64,000 nucleotides of DNA. It comes from an uncultured Gemmatimonadaceae bacterium. Lineage in GTDB: Bacteria; Gemmatimonadota; Gemmatimonadetes; Gemmatimonadales; Gemmatimonadaceae. A model generated the notes under the pieces. That model did not search any database, had not been told where the DNA came from, and was given only the letters and a program-made list of their open reading frames with translations. This document shows positions 1,196-62,958 of this stretch, piece by piece (the first letter of the stretch is position 1; each line of letters starts with the position of its first letter). Made by a program: the position numbers and the translations under genes. The stretch covers positions 224,001-288,000 of the forward strand of contig CAWHHI010000003.1 of assembly GCA_963829055.1 (NCBI GenBank), written 5' to 3'.

Positions 1196-2996
1196 GTGAC
1201 CGGACAGTTCCACTGGATCGACTGGGTCGTCCTCGTGCTCTACATCGCGGGGACGTCGTGGCTCGCCGATCGACTCACCGATCGCGGGCAGACCATCCGC
1301 GACTTCTTCCTCGGCGGCCGCAAGCTGCCGTGGTGGGCCGTGAGCGGATCGATCGTCGCGAGCGAGGTGAGTGGCGTGACGTTCGTCGCGCTGCCGGCGA
1401 TCGCGTTCGCGCGCGGCGGCAACTACACGTACATGATGCTCGCGATCGGCAGCATCCTCGCGCGCGTGCTCATCGCGTACTTCCTCATCCCCGCGTACTA
1501 CCGGCACGAGGTCTACAGTCCGTACGAGTTCATGGGACGACGACTCGGCCCGGGCGTCGTGCGCGGGATCGTCGGTGATCTTTCTCATCGGCGTCGTGCT
1601 CGGCCAGGGCGCGCGGCTCTTTCTCGCGGCCATCGTGCTCGACGCCATCACGAACATCGGCGCCGTGCCGGCGATCATCCTGCTGACGCTCATCGGCATC
1701 GGCTGGACGTGGATCGGCGGCATCACATCCGTCGTGTGGACCGACGTCGTGCAGTTCGTCATGATCGCGCTCGGCGCCATCGCATCGCTCGTCGCGGTCG
1801 TGACCGCCGTGCCGGGTGGCGTCGACGGCATCATCGCCGTGGGACGCGCAGCGGGAAAATTCCAGCTGTTCGACTTCTCGCTGTCGCCGACGGTGGAGTT
1901 CACGTTCTGGTGCGGGCTGTTCGGCTTCACGTTCCTGACGTTAGGCTCCCACGGCACGGACCAGACGATGGCCCAGCGCTTCTTCTGTTGTCGAGATGCG
2001 CGGGAGGCGCGCAAGGCGGTGCTGTGGTCGAGCGTGGCGATGATCCTGCCGCTCATCATGCTCACGGTCGGGGTCGGCCTGTTCGCTTACTTCCAGCAAT
2101 TTCCGATGACGCCCGCGCAGCTCGCCAAGGTGAGCGAGCGCTCGGACTACATCTTCCCGATCTTCATCCTGCAGGCGATGCCCGTCGTGGTGAAAGGATT
2201 GCTGTTCGCGTCGATCTTCGCCGCCGCTACGCAGACCGCAGCGATCTCCGCCATGGCGCAGACCGGACTCTCGCTGTACGAGCGCGCGCGTCAGGCAGTG
2301 ACGGACGATCGGCGGCTGCTCCGTGTCTCGCGCGGAATGGTGGTGCTGTCCGGCATCATCATCGGGCTCATGGCGGTCGTCTGCTCGCGCATCGAGCAGT
2401 ACAAGGATCTCCTGCGCCTCGCGATGGCGATGGCGAGTTACACGTACGGCGCGATGCTCGGCATCCTCTTCCTCGCGCTGCTTCCCGTCAGGCGCGATGG
2501 CCGAGGGCTGGTGTGGGGCGTGCCGTTCACGATTCTGCTCGTGTTCGCGCTCAACTGGCAGCATCAGGCGTGGGCGCGCTGGCTCATCGTCGTGGCGGTC
2601 GGCGCTATCGTGCTCATGTCCGTGCCCGTACTCCGGCGTGAATGGCCGAAGATCGGCTGGGTACTGCTCGGCGCCGCCGTCGTACTGGCAGCGACGTTCG
2701 TGCGTATCGACGTCGGCGGCGTCGCCACTCCCATCAAGCTCGCTTTCCCGTGGACGTTCCCGCTCGGCGCCGCGCTCACGCTCGGCCTCGGACTCGCGCT
2801 CGGTCGCGTACCTAACGAGCCGGTCCGTTCAGGAGATCGGACGCCAGGGTGCAACACGACGGCCTTCGCGAGGTACGCGCATGGCCGCTGGCCGGCCGAC
2901 GCGCGACTTCGGCCGCTTCCTCACGGAGCAGCGCAACCCGCGCACGATGCAGCTCGACGCCGTGCCGCTGCGCGACGCGCTGCGCATCATCAATGA
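1196..2996 (+). CDS. Sodium:solute symporter (SSS) family transporter, frameshift near 1560-1575
   Basis: DFFLGGRKLPWWAVSGSIVASEVSGVTF in the 470..2641 frame, continuing in the 1575..2996 frame (GGITSVVWTDVVQF, GTDQTMAQR). The true end is probably near 2890, because murQ starts at 2881. Confidence 0.85.
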
Positions 2997-3805
2997 CGAG
3001 GACGCTCAGGTCGCGGGCGTCGTGCGCGGCGAGATCGACCGGATCGCCGACGCCGATCGACCTCATTGTCGAACGGCGGAAGCGCGACGGACGCATCTAC
3101 TTCGTCGGCGCGGGAACGAGCGGACGACTCGGTGTTATCGAGGCCGCGGAACAGACGCCGACGCTCGACGTCCCCGACCCCATCTACCAGGCGATCATCG
3201 CCGGCGGCCCCGAGTGCGTGTTTCGCAGCAGCGAAGGCGCCGAAGACGTTGCGGACGATGGGGCCGAGCAGGTGCGCATCGCGGGAGTGCGTGAGCAGGA
3301 CGTGGTGATCGGCATCGCGGCGAGCGGGACGACGCCGTTCGTGCACGGCGCGCTGGCGGAAGCGCGTCGGCGCGGCGCGGGTCGCGTGCTGCTCGTGTGC
3401 AACCTCACCGGCGTTCTGCCTGACGCGGCGGACGTGATCATCGCGCCACTCGTCGGGCCCGAGGTCATCACGGGCGCGACCCGGCTTCGCGCGGCGACCG
3501 CGTGCAAGATGGTGCTCAACATGATGACCATCGGCACCATGCTCCAGACGGGAAAGATCTACGAGAACCTGAGCGTCGACGTTCCCAAGCGTTCCGACAA
3601 GCTCATCGCGCGAGCCACGCGCATTGTCCGCACGCTGACGGACGCCTCCGACGCCGACGCGCGCGCCGCGCTCGAGGCCGCGGACTTCCGGGCAAAGGTC
3701 GCAGTCGTGATGATCCGGCGCGGCGTCGAACGCGCGGAGGCGGAGCGCATACTCGCGCGCGCCGGTGGTTTCCTGCGGCGTGCACTCGAGGGAGACATCT
3801 CATGA
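2881..3805 (+). CDS. murQ: N-acetylmuramic acid 6-phosphate etherase-like protein (divergent), frameshift near 3055
   Basis: TEQRNPRTMQLD..INDED in one frame, then GAGTSGRLG, EGAED, GIAASGTTPFV, GPEVITGATRL..KMVLNM in the 2849..3805 frame. Confidence 0.85.
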
Positions 3806-5382
3806 CGCGATCGACGTTAGGCACGGGCGGCATGGTAGCGTGTAGCCAGCGGCTGGCGAGCGACGCCGGCGTCGCCGTGCTGCGCGCTGGCGGTACCGCC
3901 GCTGACGCCAGTGTCGCCATGGACGCCGTTCTGCACGTCACTGAACCGACGTCCACGAGTCTTGGCGGGGACATGTTCGCGCTCTATTACGACGCGCGCA
4001 CCGCACGCATCACGGCGCTGAATGGTTCTGGCCGCGCGCCACGCGGCCGCACGCTCGACGCTGTCGCCCGCGACGACGACGGACAGGTACCGCAGCGCCA
4101 CGGCGACGCGGTGACCGTGCCGGGTGTGTGCGCGGCGTGGTTCGATCTCATCGCCCGTCACGGTTCGGGGTTGATGTCGGTCGCGCGCTTGCTCGAACCG
4201 GCCATTCACGCGGCGGAGTCTGGATTCGTCGTCGCGCCCGTGGCCGCGGCCGTGTGGGAGCGCAACCTGCCGCAACTGCACTCCGACGAGCTGACCGTAG
4301 ACGGCCGTGCCCCAAACGCAGGTGAGACGTTTCGCAACCCGGCGCTCGCGGGTGTGCTGCGAGCGATCGCCGCGGGTGGGAGAGACGCGTTCTATCGTGG
4401 GCAGATCGCCGAGCGGATAGCCGCAGCGGCGCGTGCCGTCGGTGGTGCCATGACCGCTGCCGATCTCGCATCGCACCAGTCGACGTGGGAAGAGCCCATC
4501 TCCACCGCGTACCGCGACGTCCGCGTGTGGGAATGCCCGCCTAACGGGCAGGGGCTGGCCGCGCTGCTCGCACTCGCCATGCTCGACGGTCTCTCGCTCG
4601 CGCCGCCGTCGACTGCCGAACGTGCGCACGTGCAGATCGAGGCGCTTCGGCTCGGCTTCGCGGACGCGCGCTGGTACGTCACCGACCCGGCGTTCGCCTC
4701 GGTGCCGGTCACGGAGCTGCTTTCACCAGAGTACATCGCATCGCGACGCGAGCGGATCGACCTGACCCGTGCCGCGACCGACGTTCCCCATGGATCGCCG
4801 GTCGGCATCCCTGGTACGGTGTACCACTGTGCCGTGGACGCCGCGGGCAACGCGTGCTCTGTTGTCAGCTCGACGTTCGCGAGCTTCGGGAGCGGGATCG
4901 TTCCAGCCGGCCTCGGCTTCACGCTGCAGAATCGCGGCTGTGGATTCGTGCTCGACCCCCGTCACCCTAACGCGTACGCGCCCGGCAAGCGCCCGTATCA
5001 CACGATCATTCCGGGGATGCTGACGCGCGACGACGGCACGTTGTGGGGGCCGTTCGGCGTCATGGGCGGACCGATGCAGCCGCAAGGACATCTTCAGGTG
5101 GTGAACGCGCTGGTCGACGACGGCGCGACGCCGCAGGACGCGCTCGACCGGCCGCGTTTCTTCATCGAGCCCGAGCGTGAAGGCGGTCGCGTCTACCTCG
5201 AAACGGGCACACCAACCGCGGTCGCCGACGGGCTGCGTGCACGCGGGCACGACATCGTCGTCGATCCGCCGACGATCGGGCGCTCGATGTTCGGGCGTGG
5301 CCAGATCATCCTCCGTGAGCACGACGGCTCGCTCGTCGGCGGGAGCGATCATCGCGCGGATGGCTGCGTGCTCCCCGCATGA
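3802..5382 (+). CDS. ggt: Gamma-glutamyltransferase family protein
   Basis: GMVACSQRLAS, EPTSTSLGGDMF, PPNGQG, nucleophile Thr region GTVYHCAVDAAGN, LQNRG, PGKRPYHTIIP, GVMGGPMQPQGH. ATGA overlap with murQ. Confidence 0.9.
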   Translation: MTRSTLGTGGMVACSQRLASDAGVAVLRAGGTAADASVAMDAVLHVTEPTSTSLGGDMFALYYDARTARITALNGSGRAPRGRTLDAVARDDDGQVPQRHGDAVTVPGVCAAWFDLIARHGSGLMSVARLLEPAIHAAESGFVVAPVAAAVWERNLPQLHSDELTVDGRAPNAGETFRNPALAGVLRAIAAGGRDAFYRGQIAERIAAAARAVGGAMTAADLASHQSTWEEPISTAYRDVRVWECPPNGQGLAALLALAMLDGLSLAPPSTAERAHVQIEALRLGFADARWYVTDPAFASVPVTELLSPEYIASRRERIDLTRAATDVPHGSPVGIPGTVYHCAVDAAGNACSVVSSTFASFGSGIVPAGLGFTLQNRGCGFVLDPRHPNAYAPGKRPYHTIIPGMLTRDDGTLWGPFGVMGGPMQPQGHLQVVNALVDDGATPQDALDRPRFFIEPEREGGRVYLETGTPTAVADGLRARGHDIVVDPPTIGRSMFGRGQIILREHDGSLVGGSDHRADGCVLPA

Positions 5383-6545
5383 CCGCCCACGACCGCTGGA
5401 CTCGGCGCGACTTCCTCTCGGCGACGGCAGTCGGCGTCGTCGGCCTCGTTCGGCGTGGGGGCGACATGGTTGGCGCGGATGAGCATCTCGCGTACGTCGG
5501 TACGTACACGACCGACGGCCGGAGCGACGGCATCTACCGCCTGCGGCTCGATACGGCGACGGGCGCGCTGCGTGTCGACGGACTGGCGGTGACGAGTGTG
5601 AATCCCTCCTATCTCGCGCTGCATCCGAATGGGCGAGTGTTGTATGCGGTGAACGAGATCTCGGAGTTCGCGAAGGAGCCGACCGGCGCCGTGAGCGCGT
5701 TTGCGATAGCGCGGACGTCCGGCGCGCTGACGCTGCTCAACCAGCAGGCATCGCATGGTAAGGCGCCGTGTTACGTGTCCGTGGATCGCACGGGGACGGT
5801 GGTGCTGGTCGCGAACTACGGCGGCGGGAGCATCACGACGATTCCCGTTAGGCAGGACGGCCGATTGGGGACTCCGCGGAACGTGGTGAAACACGCTGGC
5901 GCTGGTGCCGATCCCGTTCGGCAGACGGCGCCGCACGCGCACTGCATCCTGGCGGACCCCGGCAACACGTTCGTGCTCGCGGTCGATCTCGGCATCGATG
6001 CGATACTGACCTATCGTTTCGATCCACGAACGGCGGCCATCACGGTCGTCCCGTCCGGCGCAGCGACGAAGCCGGGCGCCGGTCCTCGGCACCTGACGTT
6101 TCATCCGAACGGGAAGTTCGCGTACGTCGTGAACGAGCTGGACTCCACGATCGCGACGTATGCGTATGGTGCCGAACAGGGCACGCTCGAGGAGTTGCAA
6201 CTGACGGCGGCATCACCGGGTGGGACGGGGGCAGACAATCGTCCCGCCGACGTGCACGTCGCGGCGTCCGGCCGGTTCCTGTACGCGTCGAATCGTGGCG
6301 ACGACACGATCGCGGTGTTCGCGATCGATCAGGCGAGTGGCCAGCTCTCGCCGGTGCAGCAGGTCCCGAGCGGCGGGAAATCTCCGCGCAACTTCTCGCT
6401 GGACCCGACGGGGCGATTCCTGGTAGCGGCGAATCAGAAATCCGACACGATCGTCAGCTTCCGTGTCGACGCCGAATCTGGTCGCCTAACGCCAACGGGA
6501 TCGTCGGTCGAGGTGGCGAGTCCGGTCTGCGTGCGGTTTCGATAG
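5379..6545 (+). CDS. pgl: 6-phosphogluconolactonase / lactonase family beta-propeller with Tat-like signal
   Basis: TRRDFL twin-arginine motif; YVGTYT, NPSYLAL, VANYGGG, PHAH, GPRHLTFHP, LYASNRG, PRNF. Confidence 0.85.
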   Translation: MTAHDRWTRRDFLSATAVGVVGLVRRGGDMVGADEHLAYVGTYTTDGRSDGIYRLRLDTATGALRVDGLAVTSVNPSYLALHPNGRVLYAVNEISEFAKEPTGAVSAFAIARTSGALTLLNQQASHGKAPCYVSVDRTGTVVLVANYGGGSITTIPVRQDGRLGTPRNVVKHAGAGADPVRQTAPHAHCILADPGNTFVLAVDLGIDAILTYRFDPRTAAITVVPSGAATKPGAGPRHLTFHPNGKFAYVVNELDSTIATYAYGAEQGTLEELQLTAASPGGTGADNRPADVHVAASGRFLYASNRGDDTIAVFAIDQASGQLSPVQQVPSGGKSPRNFSLDPTGRFLVAANQKSDTIVSFRVDAESGRLTPTGSSVEVASPVCVRFR

Positions 6546-7542: not shown

Positions 7543-7841
7543 GGCGGACGTGCACGTCGCGGCGTCCGGCCGGTTCCTGTACGCGTCGAATCGGGCGACG
7601 ACACGATCGCGGTGTTCGCGATCGATCAGACGAGTGGCCAGCTGTCGCCGGTGCAGCAGGTCCCGAGCGGCGGAAAATCTCCGCGCACTTTTCGCTGGAC
7701 CCGACGGCGCGGTTTCTGGTCGCGGCGAAGCAGAAGTCCGACACGATCGTCAGCTTCCGTGTCGACGCCGAATCTGGCCGCCTAACGCCAACCGGTTCGT
7801 CGGTCGAGATCGCGACTCCAGTGTGCGTGCGCTTTCGGTAA
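7541..7841 (+). pseudogene. Diverged duplicate of the 3' ~300 bp of the pgl-like gene (about 6244-6545)
   Basis: Direct alignment from PADVHVAASGRFLYASNR to the stop codon, with mostly synonymous substitutions plus small deletions. Confidence 0.9.
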
Positions 7842-8005: not shown

Positions 8006-11000
8006 ATGACCAACCGCCGCAGTTCGCGTGCTCAGTCACTCTCCGCTCAGCGCGGCTCTGTTTTCGCTTGCCTGTATCGCCGCCCTGACGACTCCGGCGG
8101 TCGCGCAACGTGGCGGAGGCGGCGGGCCGGATGCCGGTGGTGGGCTGCCGCTCGTGCCCACGCGCCCACTCAAGTTCACGACCGACGAGGGCACGTGGAT
8201 GTCGGTGGATGTCGCGCCCGACGGCCGCACGCTCGTGTTCGACCTCCTCGGTGATCTCTACACCTTGCCGATCACGGGCGGATCGGCCACCCGCATCACG
8301 AGCGGTCAGGCGTTCGACGCCATGCCGCGCTTCTCGCCGGACGGCAAACACATCGCGTTCGTGAGCGATCGCAGCGGCGCGTCGAACCTCTGGGTGGCCG
8401 ATGCGGACGGCACCCATCCACGCCAGCTCAGCCGGACCGAGGGGTTCGGCTACGACTACCTGTCGCCCACGTGGACGCCCGATGGCAAGGCCGTGGTCGT
8501 GTCGCACAACAACGGCCCCGCGGCGACTGGCCTGACGCTGCGAGGGTTCACCCCGTTCGAGCTGTACGTGTATCCGATCGCCGGTGGCGTCGGGCAGCGC
8601 CTAACGGGTGGCGACACCAGCGCGCCCGGTGCCGGTGGACGGGGCGCGGCCGGCGCCCCGGCGTACCTCGGCGCACGGTTCTCCGGGCCGCAGACGGTCT
8701 GGTACTCGACAGGCGGCCAGGGCGCGCAGCTGTTCACGCTCGACCTGGCGACCGGCAAGTCGATTCGCCGCACCGTGCCACGGGGCGTGGGCATGCGCCC
8801 GATCCCGAGCCCGGACGGCCAGTGGCTCGTCTACGCGACGCGGCGCAACGACGAGACGGCGCTTCGCCTGCGCGAGATGGCCACGGGCGATGAGCGCTGG
8901 CTCGTGCGCAACGCGCAGCACGACCAGATCGGAACCAAGACCACGCGCGACCTCATGCCCGGCATGGCGTTCACGCCGGACAGCAAGGCGCTGGTCACGT
9001 CGTACGGCGGGAAGCTGTGGCGTGTCGCGGTCCCGTCGGGCGAAGCGAAGCCGATCCCCTTCACCGCCGACGTCGATCAGATGATCGGCGCGACCACGCA
9101 GTTCGCGTTCCCCACGAACGACTCCACGGTCACCGTGCGGCAGATCCGTGTGCCGCGACTGTCGCCGGACGGAAAGCGAGTCGCGTTCGTTGCGCTCGAC
9201 CGCGTCTGGGTCGCCGACCTGCCGGCTGTCCGAGCTCCCGGACAGACCGTGTCGGTCACGAACGTCGCGCCGCCTAACGCGCTTCGACCTGAGCGAGTAC
9301 AGTCCGGCCTGGAGCTCCGGACGGCCAGTCGGTGGCGTTCGTGACCTGGGACGACAGCACGGGCGGCGAGATCTATCGCGTGCGTGTCGCCGCTACCGGC
9401 GCCGCGCCGGGCGCGCCGCAGAAGCTGTCGAAAGTCGAAGGCCTTCTACGAGAAGCTCGCGTTCACGCCCGACGGCACGAAGCTGATGTTCGCCCGCGCG
9501 TCGCGCGCCGAGCGATTCGAGAGCGACGAGCTGGGATTCGCGGAGCCGTCGTCGACCCACGCGGATCTCATGTGGATGCCGGCGGCTGGGGGAGCGGCGA
9601 CGGTCATCACTCGGCTCGAGTACCTCAGTCGCCTCGATCCGCCGTACTACGGCGTCCCGCACTTCGGGCCGGACTCGTCGCGCATCATGCTGTTCGACGC
9701 CAACGCGAACGGGCTGTACTCCATGCGGCTCGATGGATCGGACCGGCAGCTCATCGCGCGCGCCGGCCAGCGGCCGTGGAACAGCTCCGGCGAGGAGCCG
9801 GTCGACGACATGATCCTCTCGCCCAAGGGCGGGTACGCTCGCGATCCTCGGTGGGCAGAACATGTGGCTCGCGACCCTCACGCCTGGAGCGACCGCGCCG
9901 ACGATCTCGCTGATGCGGCCGGCAGCTTCGCCGGTGCCGCTCAGGCGCCTAACAAAGATCGGTGCGCAGTTCGCCGGCTGGAGTCCCGACGGTCGCATCC
10001 TCCACTATTCGCTCGGGTCGGCGCTGTTCCTGTACGACGTCGCCGCAGCGGACTCGCTGGAGCGGGCGCCGGCGAACCCCGAGCAGCCAGCCGGCCTACG
10101 AGCCGACCCGCGTGGACATCACGATCACCGTGCCGAAGGACCGACCGAGCGGCACGGTGGTGCTGCGCGGCGCGCGCGTGATCACGATGAAGGGCACGGA
10201 GGTGATCGAGAACGCCGACGTCGTCGTGCGCGATAACCGCATCGCCGCGGTCGGCGCGCGTGGACAGGTGAACGCGCCTGCGGATGCGCGCGTCATCGAC
10301 GTGAGCGGCAAGACGATCGTCCCCGGCTACGTGGACACGCACGCGCACATGTACGCGCCCGGGTGGGGGCTGCATCGCACGGAGCTGTGGCAGTACTACG
10401 TGAACCTCGCGTACGGCGTCACGCGCACGCGCGACCCGCAGACCGGCAGCTACGACGTCATCGACTACAGCGACCGCGTCGAGACCGGCGACGTCCTCGG
10501 CCCGCGCATCTACACGACGGCCAAGGGCTTCTTCGAGAACGAAGGCATCCAGTCACGCTCGATGACGCACGCAATGCGCTTCGCCGGAACTCGGATTTCT
10601 TCAAGACGGAGACGATCAAGGCGTACGCGGTCGGCGATCGACGACGACGCCAGCTCGTCGCGCAGGCGGCGCAGGAGCTCAAGCTCTCGCCGACGAACGA
10701 GGGCGACGCGGACTTCATGCTCGACCTCACCCACATGCTCGACGGCTACGCGGGCGAGGAGCACACGCTCCCGACGTATCCCCTGTACAAGGACGTCGTG
10801 CAGCTCGTCGTGCAGAGCGGCATCACGTACTCGCCGGTGCTGACCATCGCGTACGGTGGTCCGACACGTGCAGGAGTATTTCACGACCCGCTACGATATC
10901 CGCGGGGAGAAGAAGGTGCAGCGCTTCTGGCCGCAGAGCTTCACGGACACGCGCACGAGCAGCTCGCAGTGGCATCCCGGACGACCAGTACGCGTTCCCG

Positions 11001-11390
11001 AAGTACGCGGCCGAGGCGGCGAAGATCGCCGCGGCAGGTGGGCGCGTGGCGGTGGGGTCGCACGGCAACCTGCAGGGCATCGGCTACCACTTCGAGATGT
11101 GGGGCCTAACGATGGGCGGCATGGCCGCGCACGAGGTGCTCCGGTCGGCAACGATGGTCGGCGCGCAGGCCATCGGCCACGCCCAGGATCTCGGCTCCAT
11201 CGAAGCGGGCAAGCTGGCCGACCTGCAGGTGCTCGACGCGAACCCGCTCGACAACATCCGCAACACGAACACGGTGCGGTTCGTGATGAAGAACGGCCGG
11301 CTCTACGACGCGCTCACGCTCGATGAGGTGTGGCCGCGGCAGGTGAAGCGGTCGACGTCGCAGTGGTGGATGGCGGCCGAGCGCCAGTGA
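8006..11390 (+). CDS. Secreted amidohydrolase with N-terminal TolB/PD40 beta-propeller (several frameshifts)
   Basis: TTDEGTWMSVDVAPDG, PRFSPDG repeats, PGYVDTHAH metal motif and GSIEAGKLADL, across ORFs 8028, 9384, 9862, 9962, 10363, 10856 and 11046. Confidence 0.85.
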
Positions 11391-11443
11391 CTTCGACCTA
11401 ACGTGTCCCGCGTCGCGCGACTCTGCGACCGCGGCGCTCGAGG

Positions 11444-18924: not shown

Positions 18925-19324
18925 GCGTCCTCCGCATTCTGCGGTAGGGTGATCGCATGACCACCGTCCCCATGACGGCGGTCGACCGTCGGGACGACAT
19001 CAGGATGCATTGCCAGCGAACGTGCTTCGACTGCGACCGGGATGAACGTCTACAGAGAGCTACACTCGCGAGCTGCCGTGCCCAGACGCCGGCTCCGACG
19101 ACTCACGACCGGTCATCGAACGACGCGATGTCGGCGCGTCGATGGTTTCGGCGTGAGTGGCGGAGCGATTTGCAAATCGCGTGCACCAGAGTGGGACGAG
19201 CCCAATTAAGAAGTGGTGAAATGCGATAGTTGGGATGTGAAGCGAGCAGGACCGACGTGTTAGCTGCCGTTAAGCTAAGCGCGAACGAGGGTGCCGGACC
19301 TAACGCCAGAGGCTGCAGCATTTC

Positions 19325-19454: not shown

Positions 19455-19557
19455 ACCATTCGATGCACCACTCAATGGAACGGTCGTCTCCGCCTAACGC
19501 GGCCCTCGTATCACTCGGCGGCACAGGCTGCCCGGCTCGCGCGAGAGAGCGACAGAG

Positions 19558-22472: not shown

Positions 22473-22535
22473 AACTGTACGGCCTAACGTGCTGATCGGT
22501 TGGTCGAGAAACTCGCTACCCACGGACTCGACAAT

Positions 22536-40359: not shown

Positions 40360-40387
40360 TGGGAGGCGCGGGAGCGCGTTAGGTACA

Positions 40388-47194: not shown

Positions 47195-47430
47195 TTAACG
47201 CCTGTGACGCGAGGCATCGGCTTGCTGGCGCATAACGACAGCGAAGGACCGTTGCTGACGAATGATGCCACGGAACGTTGCGTCCGAACGTTTCTGAACG
47301 TTGCGGATGGCTCCCGCGTTATGACAAGGACCGCCTTGTCGTCGCGACCCGAGTCGATGGCTTTCTAAACGTCAGGTTAACGACGAACGGTCAGGAATCG
47401 TCTGGTGCCCGTTAGGCTGTTAGGCAGATG

Positions 47431-55393: not shown

Positions 55394-57106
55394 GTGATCT
55401 ACCGATCGGTTGGGCGGTTCGCGTCATTGTGTGTTCTCTCGTCGTTCGTCCTCGCGCTACTCGTTCGCGACGCACACGCCCAGGCCACGTCGCGTGACGA
55501 GACCCTGCGCCTCGTCGGCGCGCTTGCCGGTGACACGCCGCTGCTGCGCGACCTGCAGTCGTTGGCAGATGGTATCGGTGGCCGCGCCACCGGATCGACC
55601 GCAAACACGCGCGCCGTGGCCTGGGCGCTCGCGCGTTTTCGCGAGGCCGGAGTCGATGCGAGGGCCGAACCGTTCACCATGCCCGTGCGCTGGCTCGAGC
55701 GGTCTGCCGCTGCCACCGTGCGTGGTGAAGGCGTCGAGTTCCACCCGGCTGTCGCGGCCATGCCATTCTCCGCGCCGACGCCCGCCGGCGGAACGACGGC
55801 GCCGTTGCTCGATGTCGGCTACGGCAAGAAGGAAGATTTCGAGCGACTCGGTGCGAGCGTACGCGGCGCATTCCTGCTCGTGCAGCAGGACGAGCTGAGA
55901 GATGTCGATGGACTGTTTCGCGAGTACGGCGAGTCCGCTGAAATCGAACAACGGGCCTTTGCCGCGGGCGTGGCAGGCGTGGCGTACATGGGGTCCCGCC
56001 CCTACAACACCCTCTACCGGCACAACGTGTCCATCGGCGCGGCCAACACGCGCCCGATGGTCGTCATGGAACACGACGCGGCCGAGAAGGCGTTGCGGCT
56101 GCTGCGGGGCGGAGCCCGCCTAACGTTGACCGAACGGATCGACATCGATGGCGGCGGCCCCTATCAGGCACAGAACGTGATCGGCGAGATCCGTGGCACC
56201 ACGAGGCCCGACGAGGTCGTCGTCATCGGCGCTCACCTCGACTCGTGGGACCTGGGTGACGGAGCGCTCGATAACGGCGCGAACGTCGCGCTCGTCATTG
56301 ACGTCGCTCGTCAGATGAAGCGGCTCGGCCTACGCCCCACGCGCACGATCCGCTTCGCGTTATGGAACGGCGAGGAGCAGGGAATGATCGGCTCGTTCGG
56401 GTACACGAAGACGCACGCGGCCGAGCTCGATCGGCACGTGATGGCGGGCTCGATCGATATCGGGTGCGGACGCATCAACGGGTTCTTCACCGGCGGCCGC
56501 CCGGAAATACTTCCCGCCGTCACCCGCTCGCTGGAAGCCGTCAGCGGCTTGGGTCCGTTCACGCAGGTCGACGCGCCGATCGTTGGCACCGACAACTTCG
56601 ACTTCATGCTGCATGGCGTCGCGAACCTCGTCGCGAACCAGGAGCCGGCGCTGTACGGCCAGAACTACCACGCGCACTCGGACGTGTTCGTGAAGTGCGA
56701 CCCGCAGCAGCTTCGCCTGAACGCGATGATCACCGCCGCGGTGGTCTATGGATTCGCCACCATGGACGTCACGTGGAATCGCCAGACGCGAGCGGACGTC
56801 GAAGGTTTGATGAAGCGCACCGATCTCGAGCAACAGATGCGCATGTTCAACGTCTGGGACGAATGGGCCGCGGGAACGCGAGGACGTCAGTCGGGAATAG
56901 GGAATCGGGACTGGCGACTAGGGAATCGGGAACTGGGGACTCGAGCTGGTGACGCTGGTCGACCAGCAGTCGTTGGTCGACCAGCGACCAGCACGAGCGA
57001 CCAGCGACCAGCTCGCCAGTCCCGATTCCCGATTCCCGATTCCCGATTCCCGACGTTCACAGAGATTCCAGGAACTTCACGAGCGCCGATCTCTTCGCGG
57101 AGTTGA
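55394..57106 (+). CDS. M28 family (carboxypeptidase Q-like) peptidase with PA domain
   Basis: GAHLDSWDLGDGALDNG, GEEQG, YHAHSD. The real protein probably ends near 56900, and the remaining ORF reads through a repeat. Confidence 0.9.
   Translation: MIYRSVGRFASLCVLSSFVLALLVRDAHAQATSRDETLRLVGALAGDTPLLRDLQSLADGIGGRATGSTANTRAVAWALARFREAGVDARAEPFTMPVRWLERSAAATVRGEGVEFHPAVAAMPFSAPTPAGGTTAPLLDVGYGKKEDFERLGASVRGAFLLVQQDELRDVDGLFREYGESAEIEQRAFAAGVAGVAYMGSRPYNTLYRHNVSIGAANTRPMVVMEHDAAEKALRLLRGGARLTLTERIDIDGGGPYQAQNVIGEIRGTTRPDEVVVIGAHLDSWDLGDGALDNGANVALVIDVARQMKRLGLRPTRTIRFALWNGEEQGMIGSFGYTKTHAAELDRHVMAGSIDIGCGRINGFFTGGRPEILPAVTRSLEAVSGLGPFTQVDAPIVGTDNFDFMLHGVANLVANQEPALYGQNYHAHSDVFVKCDPQQLRLNAMITAAVVYGFATMDVTWNRQTRADVEGLMKRTDLEQQMRMFNVWDEWAAGTRGRQSGIGNRDWRLGNRELGTRAGDAGRPAVVGRPATSTSDQRPARQSRFPIPDSRFPTFTEIPGTSRAPISSRS
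56891..57053. repeat. Nested inverted heptamer arrays (GGGAATC)n ... (GATTCCC)n with inner GCTGGTC/GACCAGC
   Basis: Directly visible; lies between convergent genes. Confidence 0.8.
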
Positions 57107-58489
57107 GCCCGAGCACCGCATCGCGCGATGCTTTTGCTTCACCGCCATGCCAGAGCACGGCTTCCATGAGCGAGCGCGCGCGACCATCGTGAAGGAAGTT
57201 GGTGTGCCCGTTCACCGTCTGCACGAGACCGATCCCCCAGAGCGGCGGCGTGCGCCACTCTTTTCCGGACGCCTGGAAATCGGGACGATTGTCGGCCAGA
57301 TCCGGTCCCATGTCGTGGAGCAGCAGATCGGTGTACGGGTGGATCACCTGGTTCGACACCGATGGCACGCCGTCGAGCGAGCCTGTCCTGACCGTCGTGG
57401 TGTGACAGGTCGCGCATCCGACCTGATAGAAGATCGCCTCGCCCTGCGTCGCCTGCGCGTCGTCGATATTGCGGCGCGCCGGCACGCCTAACGTCTGCAT
57501 GTATCGCGCGACCGCGAGAACAGCCTGATCGCTGACCTCGGGCGCGTGCCGTGCGCACTCGTCACGGTCGCCCTCGCACGACTCGGCCGGGAACAGCGAG
57601 GAGGTCACGCCCATGTCCCCGTTGTAGGCCCCGGCCGTCTGCTGGATGAGGTTCGGCGCGCCGGCCTTCCATCCAAAGCGTCCGACGACCGTCTTCGCCG
57701 CCGCGGCGTCCCAGACGCGGTTCGCCACGCCGGAGATGCCGTCGCCGTTGGCGTCGTTAGGGTCCTCGTTGGCGAGCAGCGTCGCCGTCGGGAATCGCCT
57801 CGAGCAGTCCGAGCCCGAAGTTGACCGGCGCCACCCGGGGGCTGAACAACATCTTGTTCGCCAGCGGCTCGTAGCTGCTCGTAGAAGGAGTACGACGGGA
57901 CGCGAAGCGAGTACGCCGTGCCATCGCTGAAGCGCCCGGCCACCTCCGAGTACGTGATCGACACGCTCGCTTCCGGTGCGCTGCCCGGTATGGCGCGCAG
58001 TTGTAGCTGTCCACCGAACCCCGGGACCGGGTTCGGCGCTCCCGTCACCGGATCGCGATTCGGGAAGCTGATCCGAACCAGGAATGACTCCGCGATCTCC
58101 CCAGGGCCCGGGGGTCGGCCACGCCCGTCGCCAGCATGACAGCCCTCGCACGACACGTTGTCGAACACCGGTCCCAGCCCGGCGTGCTCGGACGTTGGAT
58201 CGGTCACGAACGCGTCTTCGAATTCCTCATCGCCCTCGTTATGGAGCTTGGTGTCAGGTCCTTTCGCGAGGTTGGCGGATGGAAGTGAGAATGCGGCGTC
58301 CGTGAGGTCGAACGTGGTGGTTGCCCCTCCTGAAAGCACCGTGTGAGCGGTGGGGTCGGGCGCCATCGCGAGCGACACGCCGAGCGGCGGTCCTGTCGTG
58401 GGCGCAGTGGGTGGCAGGACGCTGTCGTCAGAGCACGCAGCGAGTACCACCACCCACACGAGGCAGGTGGAGCGAGTGGCCAAGTGCAT
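57057..58489 (-). CDS. Di-heme oxidoreductase (DHOR) family lipoprotein (frameshifted)
   Basis: LAAC lipobox; GLGPVFDNVSCEGCH and GCATCH heme motifs; GRFGWKA; PYTDLLLHDMG; WRTPPLWG; LHDGRAR. Confidence 0.92.
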
Positions 58490-58778
58490 AAGCCTCTCCT
58501 CGATTGTTGGGCGGCGTGGCTTCAGCGCACACGCCGCCGCTGCGGCGGACGCAGGAGCGGGAACTCCTGCGCGAGCCGCTGATGCAGGCGATCGCAAGGC
58601 AATCGCGGGGAGCGCGGAAGGTGCGCGCGCCAGAGAGCACGCGCGGTGATGTGCATCACGAATTGCCCGCGCAGTCGATGAATGGGCTGCCTAACGAGCA
58701 ACTTTCACTGACGCACTGGTCAGTCCGCCGCCAGGTGCCTGACGCGGCGTGGTGAGGGTTGTTACCCGCGTCCCCTCA

Positions 58779-60209
58779 TCATCTCCGCTTGATGCTGGCG
58801 CGCCAGTAGATGACGGCGCCGAGCGCGACGAATGCTGCCGCACCACCGATGACCTTCACGCCGAACGCGAACCGATTCGGCGCGTCGCCCGGCGGAATCG
58901 ACGCAACGATCATCGCGAACACCGTGATCGCCAAGCCGCACACGCCCGCCAGCGTCGCACCCACCCGTCCGCCAGGCAGCTGACCCGTCCGCGCCGGACC
59001 CCGCGCCTGCCGCAGCAGACAGAGGAACAGGTAGATGTACGGGATGAAGTACACGAGCAGCTGCGTATCGAGCAGCACCAGATAGGCCTGCTCCACCGTC
59101 GATCCCTTGCCGAGCTGCGAGACGAGCAGGAACACCGTCGCCAGCACGGCCTGCACGAGGATCGCGACGTACGGCGTCCGAAAGCGCGGATGCACCTTCC
59201 CGAACGCCGGCGGGAAATAGCGGTCCAGCCCGATCACGAACGCCACCCGGGCCGGACCCGACAGCCACGCGCCCACACCCGCCACGTTGCTCAGCGTGTA
59301 GAGTGCCGCCGCGACTGGCGCGAGCCACATGAGTGCTGGTGACGCCGCCGCACTGCCGATGCTGATCGCCTGCAGGAACCCGGACACGATGTTGAGGTCA
59401 CCGGTCGGCACGAGCCACAACACGGACAGCGTGCCGAGGATGTAGGCGGCGGCGATCAGCGGCGCGGAGATGACGATCGCGCGCGGCAGATCGCGCCGCG
59501 GGTTCGCCGTCTCCTCTCCCATCGTCGACGAGAGCTCGAGCCCCGCGAACGCGAACGCGATCGACGCCCAGAGGTTGAGCGTCGAGAGGTCCGTCACGTT
59601 AGGCACGAGCCGCGCCGCCGTGAAGGCGTTCGCGCTCGGATGGGTGACGATCGCCACGACGCCCAGCGCGATCAGCATGACGCCGGGCAGGTAGGTGGCC
59701 ACCCCGCCAATGTTGTGCAGCCACTTCCCCGCACCGAGCCCGACGATGTTCAGCAGCGGCCGCCACCCACAGCGCGGTCAGCGCGACGCCACAGCACGTA
59801 CGGCCAGCTGTTGCCTAACGAGCGTGCCGCCCTTGCCGATCGCGTACGTCGCGATGACGGCGGTCGAGATGAGCAGGTTGGGGTAGTACAGGACGTTGTT
59901 GATCCAGTAGCACCACCCGCAGAGGAACCCGTTCCACTCGCCGTACGTCCGCCGCGTCCACGCGTAGACGCCCGCCTTCCTCCGGGAACCGCGACGCGAG
60001 CGTGATGACGGCAATGCCCTGCGGGATGAAGAAGAGCAGCGCCGCCAGCAGCCACAGCACGAGCGAGCTCGGTCCGGCCTTCGCCGACGTCGCCACCCAA
60101 CGGAGCCCGAGCACGGCGACGACGTTGAACAGCACCAGATCCCCGAGTCGGAGAACGCGCTTGAGGTCGTGGGTCCCGGGTTGGGCGGCTGTCTGGCGTC
60201 GAGCGTCAT
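58779..60209 (-). CDS. APC family amino acid permease (frameshifted)
   Basis: VLGLRWVATSAKAG, PEEGGVYAW, FAFAGLEL..EETANP, FGKVHPRFRTP. Confidence 0.88.
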
Positions 60210-62358: not shown

Positions 62359-62508
62359 AGGTGGGCTGCTTCGGCAACCATCTCGGACGAATAACGCGAG
62401 CGGATGCTGGGGATCCAACGGATTGATCCTCAGCACGCGACAGACGCTCTCGCGACGATCTTAGTGAAAGTGAACGGCCTCGGGACGCACTGGTGTCCCG
62501 AGGCCGGA

Positions 62509-62603
62509 TGTCATCCCGAGCATCCGCGAGGGATCTTCTCGACCGTGATTGTGGCCAGAGCGGCCGCAACCAAGACAGAAGATCGCTGGCGCTCGGGATG
62601 ACA
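62509..62603. repeat. REP-like element (TGTCATCCCGAGC...GCTCGGGATGACA)
   Basis: Terminal inverted repeat of the same family as 40388-40516. Confidence 0.8.
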
Positions 62604-62958
62604 TTGTGCCGCGGCCATTCCCATTTCAGATGGCTCGTTGCGGTGCGCCGACTCGCCTTCCATGGAGTCAATCCGGCTGATCCACCGCATCCGTTCGCCC
62701 CCTTCGTCTGAGAAGTCTGCTGAAGCAGTCCTTGGCGTCCTCTGCGTCCGCTGCGGTGAATCGCCGTCCAGCAACCAGTAATCCGTTCTCACCGCTGCCA
62801 GCTCGACACCATCACGCGGTCTCTGCTGCTGCCTAACGAGCAACGCACGGGACAGTGACCAGGATCACGAGATGCGTCGCGATTCCGCATTCGGGGTCCC
62901 TATCTTGCGCAGGCGCCCCCTTCCCAACGGACGTTGTTATCAAATCAGGGAGGGACCC

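What the first reader, a model, noticed from the sequence alone, without database searches (positions are those of the whole stretch)
1939..62838. Non-palindromic heptamer CCTAACG/CGTTAGG iterated about once per kb through genes and spacers
Seen: by hand I count 64 exact copies (37 on +, 27 on -), e.g. 1939, 2811, 3815, 4540, 4966, 5846, 6485, 8600, 11105, 16281, 20624, 30002, 41321, 52645, 59814, 62832. There are also 6 CCTAAC[A/T] variants. A rough zero-order expectation at about 70% GC is only about 6-7, and similar words such as GCTAAC are rare here. Inside genes the motif is built from rare synonymous codons in several frames: CCT-AAC (Pro-Asn), CTA-ACG (Leu-Thr), TTA-GGC (Leu-Gly), GTT-AGG (Val-Arg), and once probably a TAA stop (37010). 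It is retained in both diverged pgl copies. The largest gaps are 31.8-36.6 kb and 59.8-62.8 kb. Established analogues: HIP1, DNA uptake sequences, Chi, KOPS, matS/NBS. Inference: a lineage-specific genome-wide signal (protein-binding, recombination/uptake or methylation-linked) that I cannot match to any motif I know.
Basis: partly seen in the sequence, partly recalled or inferred. Interest (0 to 1): 0.85.

Follow-up and report, generated by a model that had tools for sequence, protein, structure and literature searches.

The report
Hyper-abundant self word in Gemmatimonadaceae
A soil bacterium of the Gemmatimonadaceae has written the eight-letter DNA word GCCTAACG about once per kilobase through its genes and spacers, against its own codon habits, much like the self-tags by which Neisseria and Haemophilus recognise their own DNA, but what reads the word is unknown.

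Summary
The window holds 64 exact CCTAACG/CGTTAGG copies (37+, 27-) against 2.85 expected. The full word is the octamer GCCTAACG. The 7.78-Mb genome holds 6391 heptamers and 5004 octamers, and the octamer is its most over-represented 8-mer (O/E 19-49).

The excess survives a synonymous-codon shuffle (4551 observed against about 407). It is also present in short-read assemblies of relatives.

- The copies have no conserved flanks and no replication or transcription polarity.
- They are positionally conserved within the genus: 27 of 45 against 18.5% for other heptamers.
- They avoid each other within about 300 bp regardless of gene borders.
- They are nearly absent from foreign segments.
- Pro-Asn dipeptides are in excess in word-rich genomes only.

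The same word, with no dialects found, is abundant in at least 11 genera of the order and lacking in nested relatives. No methyltransferase, Vsr, AddAB/RecC, integron integrase or competence gene tracks it.

My best reading, at about 0.4, is an uptake-sequence-like self tag kept up by segment-level drive. The word is spelled like the integron attC core (RYYYAAC/GTTRRRY). This scan had noted the same word in two other Gemmatimonadaceae genomes.

The parts
1939..1945 (-). copy (octamer); antisense in gene 1575-2996+, CG-TTA-GG Leu-Gly
2811..2817 (+). copy; sense in gene 1575-2996+, CCT-AAC-G Pro-Asn
3815..3821 (-). copy (octamer); antisense in GGT gene 3802-5382+, Leu-Gly
4540..4546 (+). copy (octamer); sense in GGT gene, Pro-Asn; conserved in G001, G002, G005, G006
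4966..4972 (+). copy; sense in GGT gene, Pro-Asn; conserved in 5 of 6 genus relatives
5846..5852 (-). copy (octamer); antisense in lactonase gene 5379-6545+, Val-Arg; conserved in 4 relatives
6485..6491 (+). copy (octamer); sense in lactonase gene, Leu-Thr; conserved in 5 relatives
7781..7787 (+). copy (octamer); intergenic
8600..8606 (+). copy (octamer); sense in gene 8028-9344+, Leu-Thr; conserved in G002, G006
9273..9279 (+). copy (octamer); sense in gene 8028-9344+, Pro-Asn; conserved in G002, G006
11105..11111 (+). copy (octamer); sense in gene 11046-11390+, Leu-Thr
11397..11403 (+). copy; intergenic
11827..11833 (-). copy; sense in M20 peptidase gene 11444-12730-, Pro-Asn; conserved in G002, G005, G006
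12555..12561 (+). copy (octamer); antisense in gene 11444-12730-, Leu-Gly
12712..12718 (-). copy; sense in gene 11444-12730-, Pro-Asn
14804..14810 (-). copy; sense in gene 14220-15065-, Pro-Asn
16281..16287 (-). copy (octamer); sense in gene 15982-16938-, Pro-Asn
16959..16965 (+). copy (octamer); antisense in gene 16887-17411-, Val-Arg
17144..17150 (-). copy (octamer); sense in gene 16887-17411-, Pro-Asn
17427..17433 (-). copy (octamer); sense in gene 17401-18015-, Pro-Asn
17988..17994 (-). copy; sense in gene 17401-18015-, Pro-Asn
19299..19305 (+). copy; intergenic
19493..19499 (+). copy (octamer); intergenic
20624..20630 (+). copy (octamer); antisense in gene 19558-21084-, Leu-Gly
21366..21372 (+). 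copy (octamer); antisense in gene 21104-22057-, Leu-Gly
22483..22489 (+). copy (octamer); intergenic
23304..23310 (-). copy (octamer); sense in gene 23197-24351-, Pro-Asn
23559..23565 (-). copy (octamer); sense in gene 23197-24351-, Pro-Asn
24494..24500 (+). copy; antisense in gene 24478-25332-, Leu-Gly
26310..26316 (-). copy; its TAG (26313-26315) is the stop of gene 25773-26315+
27623..27629 (+). copy; sense in PKD gene 27534-28199+, Leu-Thr
28803..28809 (+). copy (octamer); antisense in MacB/FtsX gene 28253-31084-, Leu-Gly
29250..29256 (+). copy (octamer); antisense in gene 28253-31084-, Leu-Gly
30002..30008 (+). copy (octamer); antisense in gene 28253-31084-, Val-Arg
30773..30779 (-). copy (octamer); sense in gene 28253-31084-, Leu-Thr
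31799..31805 (+). copy (octamer); intergenic; last copy before the 4.8-kb gap
36637..36643 (-). copy (octamer); sense in response-regulator gene 36209-36994-, Pro-Asn
37008..37014 (-). copy (octamer); intergenic in my gene calls
37177..37183 (-). copy (octamer); its TAA is the stop of histidine-kinase gene 37179-37790-
39418..39424 (+). copy (octamer); intergenic
40377..40383 (-). copy; its TAG is the stop of gene 39450-40382+
40526..40532 (-). copy (octamer); intergenic
41321..41327 (+). copy (octamer); sense in gene 41264-42097+, Pro-Asn
41567..41573 (+). copy; sense in gene 41264-42097+, Pro-Asn
43185..43191 (+). copy (octamer); intergenic
43795..43801 (+). copy; sense in gene 43424-43921+, Leu-Thr
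44251..44257 (-). copy (octamer); sense in gene 44141-44581-, Pro-Asn
45304..45310 (+). copy; antisense in M48 peptidase gene 45153-46997-, Leu-Gly
47410..47416 (-). copy (octamer); intergenic
49041..49047 (-). copy (octamer); intergenic
49760..49766 (+). copy; intergenic
52158..52164 (+). copy; intergenic
52645..52651 (-). copy; its TAG is the stop of gene 52231-52650+
52690..52696 (-). copy (octamer); overlaps the end of gene 52692-53774-
53485..53491 (+). copy; antisense in gene 52692-53774-, Leu-Gly
53747..53753 (-). copy (octamer); sense in gene 52692-53774-, Pro-Asn
54347..54353 (+). copy; intergenic
56119..56125 (+). copy (octamer); sense in M28 peptidase gene 55391-57106+, Leu-Thr
57487..57493 (+). 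copy (octamer); antisense in gene 57057-57728-, Leu-Gly
57755..57761 (-). copy; intergenic
58690..58696 (+). copy (octamer); sense in gene 58504-58755+, Pro-Asn
59597..59603 (-). copy (octamer); sense in permease gene 58779-59702-, Pro-Asn
59814..59820 (+). copy (octamer); antisense in gene 59778-60014-, Val-Arg
62832..62838 (+). copy (octamer); intergenic

Best explanation
GCCTAACG (core CCTAAC, G preferred on both sides) is a genome-wide 'self word' of certain Gemmatimonadaceae. It spreads by point substitution, not by insertion of an element, into every place that tolerates it: synonymous codon pairs, stop codons and spacers. It is read on double-stranded DNA without regard to orientation. 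It is kept in place by a pressure that acts on DNA segments of a few hundred base pairs, not on single sites: one copy per segment is enough, and a second copy nearby gains little. These statements are shown here. My inference for the mechanism is that it works as the DNA uptake sequences of Neisseriaceae and Pasteurellaceae do. The DNA-uptake or transformation machinery would prefer fragments that carry the word. Alleles that carry it would then replace alleles that lack it by homologous recombination, so the word accumulates to about one per kilobase and marks the organism's own DNA. This could be molecular drive, with or without benefit to the cell. The reader protein is unknown.
For: Shown: The genome holds 6391 heptamers and 5004 octamers on all 20 contigs at 0.64-1.09 per kb. 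It is the top 7- and 8-mer at Markov orders 1-3. CDS hold 4551 copies against about 407 after synonymous shuffling. 59% of Pro-Asn-[VADEG] and 27% of [SPTA]-Leu-Gly tripeptides are spelled with the word, although CCT is 8.6% of Pro codons and TTA 1.6% of Leu codons. Flanks are not conserved beyond position -1. There is no replication-arm or gene-strand polarity. Copies are exactly conserved in 27 of 45 site-by-genome comparisons within the genus, against 18.5% for all other heptamers of the same alignments. The pair correlation is 0.22 below 25 bp and rises to 1.0 at about 500 bp, for direct, convergent and divergent pairs alike. The chance that a permissive tripeptide carries the word falls from 68% to 26% (Pro-Asn-G) and from 35% to 6% (Leu-Gly) when another copy lies within 100 bp. 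This holds equally whether that copy is in the same gene or outside it. The word is almost absent from a 55-kb segment whose housekeeping genes have second copies elsewhere at 47-58% identity. The Pro-Asn dipeptide has O/E 1.39 (G000) and 1.44 (G167) in word-rich genomes, against 1.05 and 1.03 in word-poor G009 and G155. ComEC, a PilQ-like secretin, a ComEA-like protein and type IV pilins are encoded. From papers: DUS are likewise conserved in position, enriched in the core genome, absent from recent acquisitions and spaced like conversion tracts (PMC2397512, abstract and passages). USS are evenly distributed, as expected under drive (PMC7811141, passages).
Against: No uptake experiment exists, and no paper in the library links Gemmatimonadota to uptake sequences (0 papers). 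The competence genes found are equally present in word-poor relatives, so they explain nothing about who has the word. No receptor candidate emerged: a minor-pilin cluster shared by word-rich G127 and G014 has no homologue in G000. Unlike DUS, there are no dialects. The same spelling occurs in at least 11 genera, and word-poor genomes show no alternative word in the samples taken. Unlike DUS and USS, there is no excess of close inverted pairs: 28 inverted against 53 direct within 60 bp, all depleted. The word is shorter (7-8 bp) than DUS or USS. The roughly 300-bp avoidance zone is shorter than typical uptake fragments. Segment-level selection would also fit an array of binding sites for a chromosome-bound protein.
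Confidence: 0.4

Rival explanations
1. The copies are binding or loading sites for an abundant chromosome-associated protein (nucleoid organisation, segregation or repair). This protein would need sites at intervals of some hundred base pairs. Selection on chromosome function, not DNA uptake, would keep them.
For: The evidence is positional conservation, orientation-independent mutual avoidance below about 300 bp that ignores gene borders, and presence in coding and non-coding DNA alike. A structural role was proposed for the quasi-periodic HIP1 of cyanobacteria (PMC13756078, introduction).
Against: No periodic peak follows the avoidance zone: the pair correlation is flat at 1.0 from 500 bp to 5 kb. 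Close relatives nested among word-rich lineages do without the word (G155, G009). That is hard to square with a core chromosomal function. There is no dyad symmetry or extended footprint, and I found no candidate protein.
Confidence: 0.2
2. The word is linked to integrons. It is the R-box of attC sites (GCCTAAC/GTTAGGC). The genome-wide copies would be, or would serve as, secondary recombination sites for the integron integrase, or raw material from which cassettes arise.
For: The heptamer fits the attC consensus R'' RYYYAAC / R' GTTRRRY, and attC of aadB uses GCCTAAC, with the gene's TAA stop inside it (PMC12901181, passages). Only 32 of 16384 heptamers, counting both strands, fit that consensus. 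Strand-polarised arrays of the word at about 550-bp spacing in G027 and G025 are integron cassette arrays, with an integrase fragment beside one of them. G000 has its own integron: intI lies at C20:208041-208958, with about 11 same-strand attC-like sites that start with the word. In G000, 375 of 964 TAA stops are spelled CCTAA, the same arrangement as at cassette ends.
Against: Integrase above the family cut-off is found in 24 of 41 relatives, including word-poor G007, G008, G009, G011 and G016. It is not found above the cut-off in word-rich G002, G004, G006 and G014. The genome-wide copies lack everything else an attC has. They have no conserved flanks. Pairs in the R''...R' arrangement at 50-200 bp are depleted, not enriched. 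No known integrase activity writes its site into genes by point substitution.
Confidence: 0.1
3. A methylation or repair ratchet of the kind proposed for HIP1. A methyltransferase marks the word, and a mismatch-correcting activity converts near-matches into matches, so the word grows by biased repair inside each cell.
For: The scale of enrichment is that of HIP1, and HIP1 is likewise polyphyletic, spread by substitution and conserved (PMC13756078, introduction). Several one-letter variants are depleted to 0.2-0.4 of expectation: positions 2 and 7, GCTTAACG and GCCTAGCG.
Against: No hit to PF01555, PF02384 or PF00145 at E<=1e-8 in word-rich G000 (86% complete) and G127 (96%). No PF01555 or PF02384 hit in G305 and G270 (both 97%). 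Word-poor G155 and G009 have several. The D12-class enzyme PF02086 is in G127, G155 and G009, is only a fragment in G000, and is missing in G014. Vsr was found in 0 of 5 genomes. A site-by-site repair bias does not predict that a copy within 100 bp suppresses conversion 2.5- to 6-fold. Many gains need two or three substitutions, such as CTC to TTA.
Confidence: 0.08
4. A Chi-like recombination hotspot that attenuates a helicase-nuclease (AddAB or RecBCD) and so protects the organism's own DNA.
For: Chi sites are short, non-palindromic, over-represented self markers. A second site close to the first would add little, which could give avoidance.
Against: There is no co-orientation with replication. 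The arms around the skew switch on C16 carry 44:56 and 50:50, and the correlation between skew and orientation is -0.19. AddAB-type PDDEXK_1 proteins were not found in word-rich G167 (100% complete, 4 contigs) or G127. RecC was found in 0 of 5 genomes. As I recall, an O/E of 19-49 far exceeds that of known Chi sites.
Confidence: 0.04
5. Not a signal at all: a by-product of codon or amino-acid usage, or an assembly or base-calling artefact.
For: G000 is an assembly with single-base indel errors: rpoB is frameshifted, and contigs from four runs agree on 1-nt indels at 16241-18127.
Against: Synonymous shuffling leaves 407 of 4551 copies, and non-coding DNA is twice as dense as coding DNA. Short-read MEGAHIT assemblies of relatives carry the word at 0.5-1.1 per kb, while 76 unrelated loci carry 0.03 per kb. 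Contigs from public short-read runs of several studies cover copies with few or no differences.
Confidence: 0.01

Closest known systems
DNA uptake sequences: DUS of Neisseriaceae and USS of Pasteurellaceae
   Same: Both are short non-palindromic words at about one per kb, equally on both strands. Both are written by substitution into permissive places of genes and spacers, are conserved in position between species, and are rare in foreign DNA. Both are evenly spread and leave a measurable imprint on the proteome (PMC2397512 and PMC7811141, passages; PMC2817400, abstract only).
   Different: Uptake bias is not shown and no receptor is known. The word is 7-8 bp rather than 9-12. There are no inverted pairs acting as terminators. 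There are no dialects: the same spelling occurs in many genera, with word-poor species nested among them. It lies in another phylum, for which my literature searches found no record of uptake sequences.
HIP1 (GCGATCGC) of cyanobacteria
   Same: Both are octamers at about one per kb. Both are polyphyletic, spread by substitution, conserved in coding and non-coding DNA, and not randomly spaced (PMC13756078, introduction and discussion).
   Different: HIP1 is a palindrome that contains the sites of two methyltransferases. This word is not palindromic, and no methyltransferase family searched is shared by the word-rich genomes.
Integron attC core sites (R'' RYYYAAC, R' GTTRRRY)
   Same: The spelling is identical: GCCTAAC/GTTAGGC. 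The integrons of this order, including that of G000, start their attC sites with GCCTAACG.
   Different: The 6391 genomic copies are isolated words. They have no partner box, no L boxes and no hairpin, and the integron integrase does not track their abundance.
Chi and KOPS (polar chromosome words)
   Same: These are also short, over-represented, non-palindromic words.
   Different: Those words are strongly co-oriented with replication. This one is not, and AddAB/RecC were not found in two word-rich genomes.

Membership tests
DNA uptake sequences (DUS/USS) | Cells take up or are transformed by DNA bearing the word in preference to DNA without it | not testable with these tools
   Needs an uptake or transformation assay in a cultured word-rich strain.
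DNA uptake sequences (DUS/USS) | Hyper-abundant short non-palindromic word, about 1 per kb, equal on both strands, genome-wide | tested here: met
   6391 copies in 7.78 Mb, with the strands about equal on every contig (octamer 2457 forward: 2547 reverse). All 20 contigs carry it. O/E is 18-49.
DNA uptake sequences (DUS/USS) | Copies conserved in position between related species, sitting in permissive places | tested here: met
   27 of 45 conserved against 18.5% background. All differences seen in rpoBC are synonymous.
DNA uptake sequences (DUS/USS) | Rare in recently acquired or foreign DNA | tested here: met
   Deserts total 170 kb. C6:1-55 kb has 1 copy and carries duplicate housekeeping genes at 47-58% identity to the resident ones.
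DNA uptake sequences (DUS/USS) | Even spacing / diminishing return of a second copy on the same fragment | tested here: met
   Pair correlation 0.22-0.54 below 200 bp. Conversion of permissive sites drops 2.5- to 6-fold near another copy, independent of gene borders.
DNA uptake sequences (DUS/USS) | Dedicated receptor (ComP-type minor pilin in Neisseria) | tested here: inconclusive
   All 5 genomes searched encode pilins. The only cluster shared by two word-rich genomes has no homologue in G000.
DNA uptake sequences (DUS/USS) | Competence machinery encoded | tested here: met
   ComEC 5 of 5, PilQ-like 5 of 5 and ComEA-like HHH_3 5 of 5, but they are equally present in word-poor genomes.
DNA uptake sequences (DUS/USS) | Close inverted pairs downstream of genes (typical, not strictly defining) | tested here: not met
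   28 inverted against 53 direct pairs within 60 bp, all classes depleted. Single copies do peak at and just after stop codons.
HIP1-type methyltransferase-linked word | Word contains the site of a methyltransferase conserved in the genomes that are rich in it | tested here: not met
   No PF01555, PF02384 or PF00145 hit in G000 and G127. No PF01555 or PF02384 hit in G305 and G270. Other methyltransferase families and actual methylation were not tested.
HIP1-type methyltransferase-linked word | Palindromic | tested here: not met
   GCCTAACG is not its own reverse complement.
Chi / KOPS (polar words) | Strong co-orientation with the direction of replication | tested here: not met
   44:56 and 50:50 on the two arms of C16. 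Spearman -0.19 over 137 windows of 50 kb.
Integron attC site | R'' and R' boxes fitting RYYYAAC / GTTRRRY | tested here: met
   GCCTAAC / GTTAGGC fit the consensus quoted in PMC12901181.
Integron attC site | Paired boxes 50-150 bp apart with L boxes, foldable, in one-strand arrays beside intI | tested here: not met
   Not met for the genome-wide copies. Met only for the array at G000 C20:198.7-207.2 kb and for the arrays in G027 and G025.
REP / MITE / other dispersed element | Conserved sequence beyond the core word | tested here: not met
   Only position -1 is biased (G 78%). The other flanks show just the 3-base coding rhythm.

The most novel reading that the evidence does not exclude
The word is a third, independent bacterial 'self tag' system, in a phylum where none is known, and its identity with the integron attC core is not chance. 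In these soil bacteria the machinery that favours the organism's own DNA (uptake or post-uptake recombination) would then also favour integron cassettes, each of which carries the word. Conversely, about 6400 genomic copies, hundreds of them sitting exactly on stop codons as at cassette ends, would give the integron integrase secondary sites across the chromosome and a source from which new cassettes could be cut. That would tie natural transformation to the still unexplained origin and spread of gene cassettes.
Probability: 0.1. Interest if true: 0.92.

Novelty: new member of a known kind. Interest (0 to 1): 0.74.

Why it matters
Genome-wide self words are known from only two proteobacterial families (DUS, USS) and, with a still debated role, from cyanobacteria (HIP1). 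A further case in Gemmatimonadota, an abundant but little-cultured soil phylum, would matter in several ways:

- It would point to sequence-biased DNA exchange in soil.
- It offers a practical marker. Word density flags foreign or chimeric stretches in metagenome-assembled genomes, as it did here for C6:1-55 kb.
- It makes the question of segment-level drive against site-level repair bias testable from sequence alone, through the interference test.
- The spelling shared with the integron core, if meaningful, bears on how gene cassettes are made and captured.

Tried and rejected
1. Replication or transcription polarity of the KOPS or Chi kind was rejected.

2. A dispersed element (REP/MITE) was rejected, because the flanks are not conserved.

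3. Dialects: 50-94 kb samples of G155, G108, G220 and G127, and 17-18 kb samples of G009 and G014, showed either the same word or no hyper-abundant word. The samples are small.

4. Integron integrase as the driver was rejected. It was found in 24 of 41 relatives without relation to word density.

5. Methyltransferases (PF01555, PF02384, PF00145, PF02086) and Vsr: none tracks the word. Other families (MT-A70, Eco57I-type) were not searched.

6. AddAB/RecC do not track the word.

7. ComEC, PilQ-like and ComEA-like genes are present in word-rich and word-poor genomes alike, so they are uninformative.

8. Pilin orthogroups were built from 38 pilin-like ORFs of five genomes. No group is present in all three word-rich genomes and absent from both word-poor ones.

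9. Within-species variation came from contigs of four public runs laid on window 1-20000. Only 40 of 663 differences were listed. None lies in a copy, but about 0.3 would be expected, so the test has no power.

10. The GGT orthologue was too diverged in G014 (42%) to compare sites, so rpoBC was used instead.

11. GAAGTAC (1548 copies) looked like a second word. It is Lys-Tyr in preferred codons with no flank signal, and I take it for coding usage.

12. Literature: the strings GCCTAACG, CGTTAGGC, CCTAACG and CGTTAGG gave one unrelated paper. 'Gemmatimonad*' with 'uptake sequence*' gave none. The library holds only open-licence PMC papers and bioRxiv.

Full report
**Observation.** Dinucleotide-preserving shuffles give 2.85 (largest 7). 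One search confirms the side observations: 6 CCTAAC[A/T] variants, 4 GCTAAC, and 70 of the 86 CTAA tetramers lying inside CCTAAC. The window is G000:C3:224001-288000, part of a 7.78-Mb, 20-contig genome of 66.7% G+C.

**The word and its excess.** The genome holds 6391 heptamers, on every contig at 0.64-1.09 per kb.
- The base before the heptamer is G in 78% of copies. Beyond that, the flanks show only the three-base rhythm of coding DNA.
- The unit is therefore the octamer GCCTAACG, with 5004 copies. It is the most over-represented 8-mer at Markov orders 1, 2 and 3 (O/E 38, 49 and 19).
- 72% of all CTAA tetramers in the genome lie inside the heptamer.
- Among one-letter variants, ACCTAACG (827), GCCTAACA (435) and GCATAACG (583) are enriched. 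Changes at positions 2 and 7 are depleted to about 0.2 of expectation.

**Codon null.** The gene calls are my own and crude. They rest on GC3 and give 8090 genes and 84% coding.
- 4518 copies lie within genes, 1305 between them, and 568 across a gene border.
- Density is 0.69 per kb in coding DNA and 1.48 per kb outside it.
- Only the four stop-free readings occur: CCT-AAC 1322, C-CTA-ACG 835, CG-TTA-GG 1665 and C-GTT-AGG 696.
- Shuffling synonymous codons within each gene 20 times gives 280 + 127 copies, against 2172 + 2379 observed. That null is conservative, because the shuffled pool keeps the rare codons that the word itself contributes.
- 54% of all TTA codons lie in the word.
- 59% of Pro-Asn-[VADEG] tripeptides and 27% of [SPTA]-Leu-Gly tripeptides are spelled with it.
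- 375 of 964 TAA stops are CCTAA, and 316 of 2253 TAG stops are GTTAG.
- Copies peak at the stop codon: 546 in the 20 bases before the gene end, against about 80 per bin elsewhere. They stay raised for about 100 bases downstream.

**Not an artefact.** The closest public relatives of the window's gamma-glutamyltranspeptidase gene are Gemmatimonadaceae soil MAGs assembled from short reads. Three of them carry the word at 0.5-1.1 per kb. A fourth, of 73% G+C, carries 0.08 per kb. The 76 unrelated loci carry 0.03 per kb. Twenty public runs from 16 studies of soil, rhizosphere and sediment hold part of the stretch as contigs. G000 itself has single-base indel errors: rpoB is frameshifted, and contigs from four runs agree on 1-nt indels at 16241-18127. 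These errors are not placed at the word.

**No polarity.** Over 137 windows of 50 kb, the orientation of the word correlates weakly with GC skew (Spearman -0.19) and not with gene strand (-0.03). Around the skew switch on C16 the two arms carry 159:201 and 234:230. This excludes a KOPS-like reading and argues against a Chi-like one.

**Spacing and interference.** The mean spacing is 1201 bp, but short spacings are missing. 1.0% of spacings are at most 50 bp, against 4.1% expected, and 6.5% are at most 200 bp, against 15.3% expected.
- The null moves each copy at random within its 20-kb block. Against it, the pair correlation is 0.22 (<25 bp), 0.27, 0.32, 0.45, 0.54 (150-200 bp), 0.77 and 0.90, reaching 1.0 from about 500 bp. 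No later peak appears.
- Direct, convergent and divergent pairs behave alike.
- The avoidance is not a matter of where sites are possible:

| Distance to nearest other copy | Pro-Asn-G sites carrying the word | [SPTA]-Leu-Gly sites carrying the word |
|---|---|---|
| under 100 bp | 26% | 6% |
| 100-200 bp | 45% | 17% |
| 200-300 bp | 57% | 27% |
| 300-1200 bp | 68% | 34-36% |
| over 2 kb | 33% | 15% |

- The drop is the same whether the neighbouring copy lies in the same gene or outside it: 0.34 against 0.36, and 0.092 against 0.104, within 150 bp.

The pressure therefore acts on stretches of DNA, with diminishing return, and not on single sites or on genes.

**Conservation and distribution.** In alignments of window 1500-13800 with the six other genomes of the genus (72-83% nucleotide identity), 27 of 45 site-by-genome comparisons keep the word exactly. 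All other heptamers do so in 18.5% of cases (5971 of 32257). The comparisons are not phylogenetically independent. G003 and G004, which have half the density, show ordinary codons at the lost places, such as CCGAACG and CGCTCGG.

All 7 genomes of the genus have 2501-5112 octamers. G014, of another genus, has 6360 in 5.1 Mb.

In a panel of 301 genomes of the order (90 genera), I read these counts from the table:
- 15 genomes have at least 1000 copies.
- 31 genomes have at least 300.
- These lie in 10 and more genera of the own family, with weaker enrichment in two other families.
- Most of the rest have 2-60 copies, about ten times fewer than the reversed-word control.

Unpublished genomes G013, G094, G212 and G266 enter only these totals.

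Samples of DNA from G127, G014 and G220 have the same word on top. Samples from G155, G009 and G108 show no other hyper-abundant word. So I see no dialects, although the samples are only 17-94 kb.

An rpoB tree of nine taxa was built with the word's columns masked (4564 columns). It places word-poor G155 as sister to the word-rich G127/G159/G215 (support 93) and word-poor G009 next to them (99), inside the word-rich G167, G014 and G000/G004. The trait therefore changed at least twice. Two rpoB sites are shared by all seven word-rich taxa of four genera, while G009 has CGCTGGG and CGCTCGG there. All differences at such sites are synonymous, and many need two or three substitutions, such as CTC-GGA against TTA-GGC.

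**Imprint on proteins.** The dipeptide Pro-Asn has O/E 1.39 in G000, ninth of 400 dipeptides, and 1.44 ± 0.10 in word-rich G167. In word-poor G009 and G155 it is 1.05 ± 0.13 and 1.03 ± 0.11. The reverse dipeptide Asn-Pro shows no such contrast. The pressure is thus strong enough to change amino acids.

**Foreign DNA.** Only 170 kb of the genome has three or fewer copies per 20 kb. C6:1-55 kb has one copy. It carries FtsK, chorismate synthase, anthranilate synthase, DAHP synthase and an M17 peptidase, each with a second copy elsewhere in G000 at 47-58% amino-acid identity. It is a foreign or chimeric segment.

**Search for a reader.**
- Vsr: 0 of 5 genomes.
- DNA methyltransferases PF01555, PF02384 and PF00145: none in word-rich G000 and G127. 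Word-poor G155 has 1, 1 and 2 hits, and word-poor G009 has 3, 7 and 0.
- Among five further word-rich genomes, PF02384 hits occur in 2 and PF01555 in 1. G305 and G270 have neither.
- PF02086 does not track the word either.
- AddAB-type proteins were not found in G167 (100% complete) or G127. RecC was found in 0 of 5 genomes.
- ComEC, a PilQ-like secretin and a ComEA-like protein are in 5 of 5 genomes, word-rich and word-poor alike.
- Of 38 pilin-like ORFs, none forms a group confined to the word-rich genomes.

**The integron coincidence.** In G027 and G025 the word occurs every ~550 bp on one strand, each time followed by a conserved ~40-base element and next to an integrase fragment. These are integron cassette arrays. 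GCCTAAC/GTTAGGC is the textbook attC core: R'' RYYYAAC and R' GTTRRRY, and attC of aadB uses GCCTAAC (PMC12901181, passages).

G000 has its own integron outside the window. Its intI lies at C20:208041-208958 and scores 265.7 bits, just over the cut-off. About 11 same-strand attC-like sites start with the word. One of them folds with its two boxes paired, though not better than shuffles (z -1.08).

The integrase is over the cut-off in 24 of 41 relatives with no relation to word density, and the dispersed copies have none of the other attC features. I leave the shared spelling as an unexplained coincidence. About 0.2% of heptamers fit the consensus.

**Comparison and verdict.** In every feature that sequence can show, the word behaves like the DNA uptake sequences of Neisseriaceae and Pasteurellaceae:
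- density and strand balance;
- spread by substitution;
- placement in permissive sites;
- positional conservation;
- absence from foreign DNA;
- even spread;
- an imprint on the proteome.

The sources are PMC2397512 and PMC7811141 (passages) and PMC2817400 (abstract only, in a search listing).

It differs in several ways. It is shorter. It lacks terminator pairs. It has one spelling across many genera, with word-poor species nested among them. No uptake bias or receptor is known.

It also resembles HIP1, but it is not a palindrome and has no cognate methyltransferase in the genomes searched. The interference result speaks for a segment-level drive or selection and against a site-by-site repair bias.

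I hold the uptake-like self tag as the best explanation at about 0.4. An array of protein-binding sites on the chromosome follows at 0.2. Integron-linked, methylation-ratchet and Chi-like readings come behind.

The scan had already noted the same word in two other Gemmatimonadaceae genomes. Those notes agree with what I found but are not independent evidence. I found nothing in print: the searches covered an open-licence library only.

Noticed in passing
G000 C20:198000-209000 (outside the window; locus L145 700-10960): G000 has a chromosomal integron. A full-length intI lies at C20:208041-208958 (265.7 bits, just over the TIGR02249 cut-off). About 11 same-strand attC-like sites start with (G)CCTAACG at intervals of 0.1-1.7 kb. 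They lie on the 3' side of intI, which is an unusual orientation.
   Followed up: partly
L081-L085 (G027:C95, C43, C80; G025:C3): Word-poor relatives of another family carry long integron cassette arrays, more than 25 cassettes of about 550 bp on G027:C95. Their attC sites all begin GCCTAACG followed by a conserved ~40-base element. No ORF of 400 aa or more occurs in 20 kb.
   Followed up: partly
window 69-205, 6572-6606, 22397-22408, 40388-40516, 51293-51425, 62509-62603: A second, unrelated repeat, TGTCATYCCGAG(CG), occurs often as inverted pairs 80-120 bp apart in spacers. There are 13 matches in the window against 0.63 expected, and roughly 1400 in the genome. It has conserved flanks and so is REP- or MITE-like. 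Contig depth in public runs is very high at 1-667.
   Followed up: partly
window 14220-18015; G000 C19:47991-52509: Genes are broken by single-base indels of the assembly. The SusD/TonB-receptor genes are in pieces, and rpoB is in two frames. Contigs from four public runs agree on 1-nt indels at 16241, 17742, 17755, 17891, 17914 and 18127.
   Followed up: partly
G000 C6:1-55000 and C11:1-45000: Word-free stretches at contig starts. The C6 stretch holds duplicate housekeeping genes (FtsK, AroC, TrpE/D, DAHP synthase, M17) at 47-58% identity to the resident copies. It is likely a chimeric join or a large foreign insert. Word density could serve as a check for mis-binned DNA.
   Followed up: partly
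window 31806-36636: This is the largest word-free gap of the window. The ORFs at 32256-34894 have no Pfam match, and 35730-36122 is a small methyltransferase-domain fragment. It is possibly a recent insertion.
   Followed up: no
G000, G127, G305, G270 against G155, G009 (whole genomes): Word-rich genomes seem poor in restriction-modification methyltransferases. They have none of PF01555 or PF02384, and G000 and G127 also have no PF00145. The two nested word-poor genomes have 4 and 10 such hits. The sample is small and not corrected for phylogeny.
   Followed up: no
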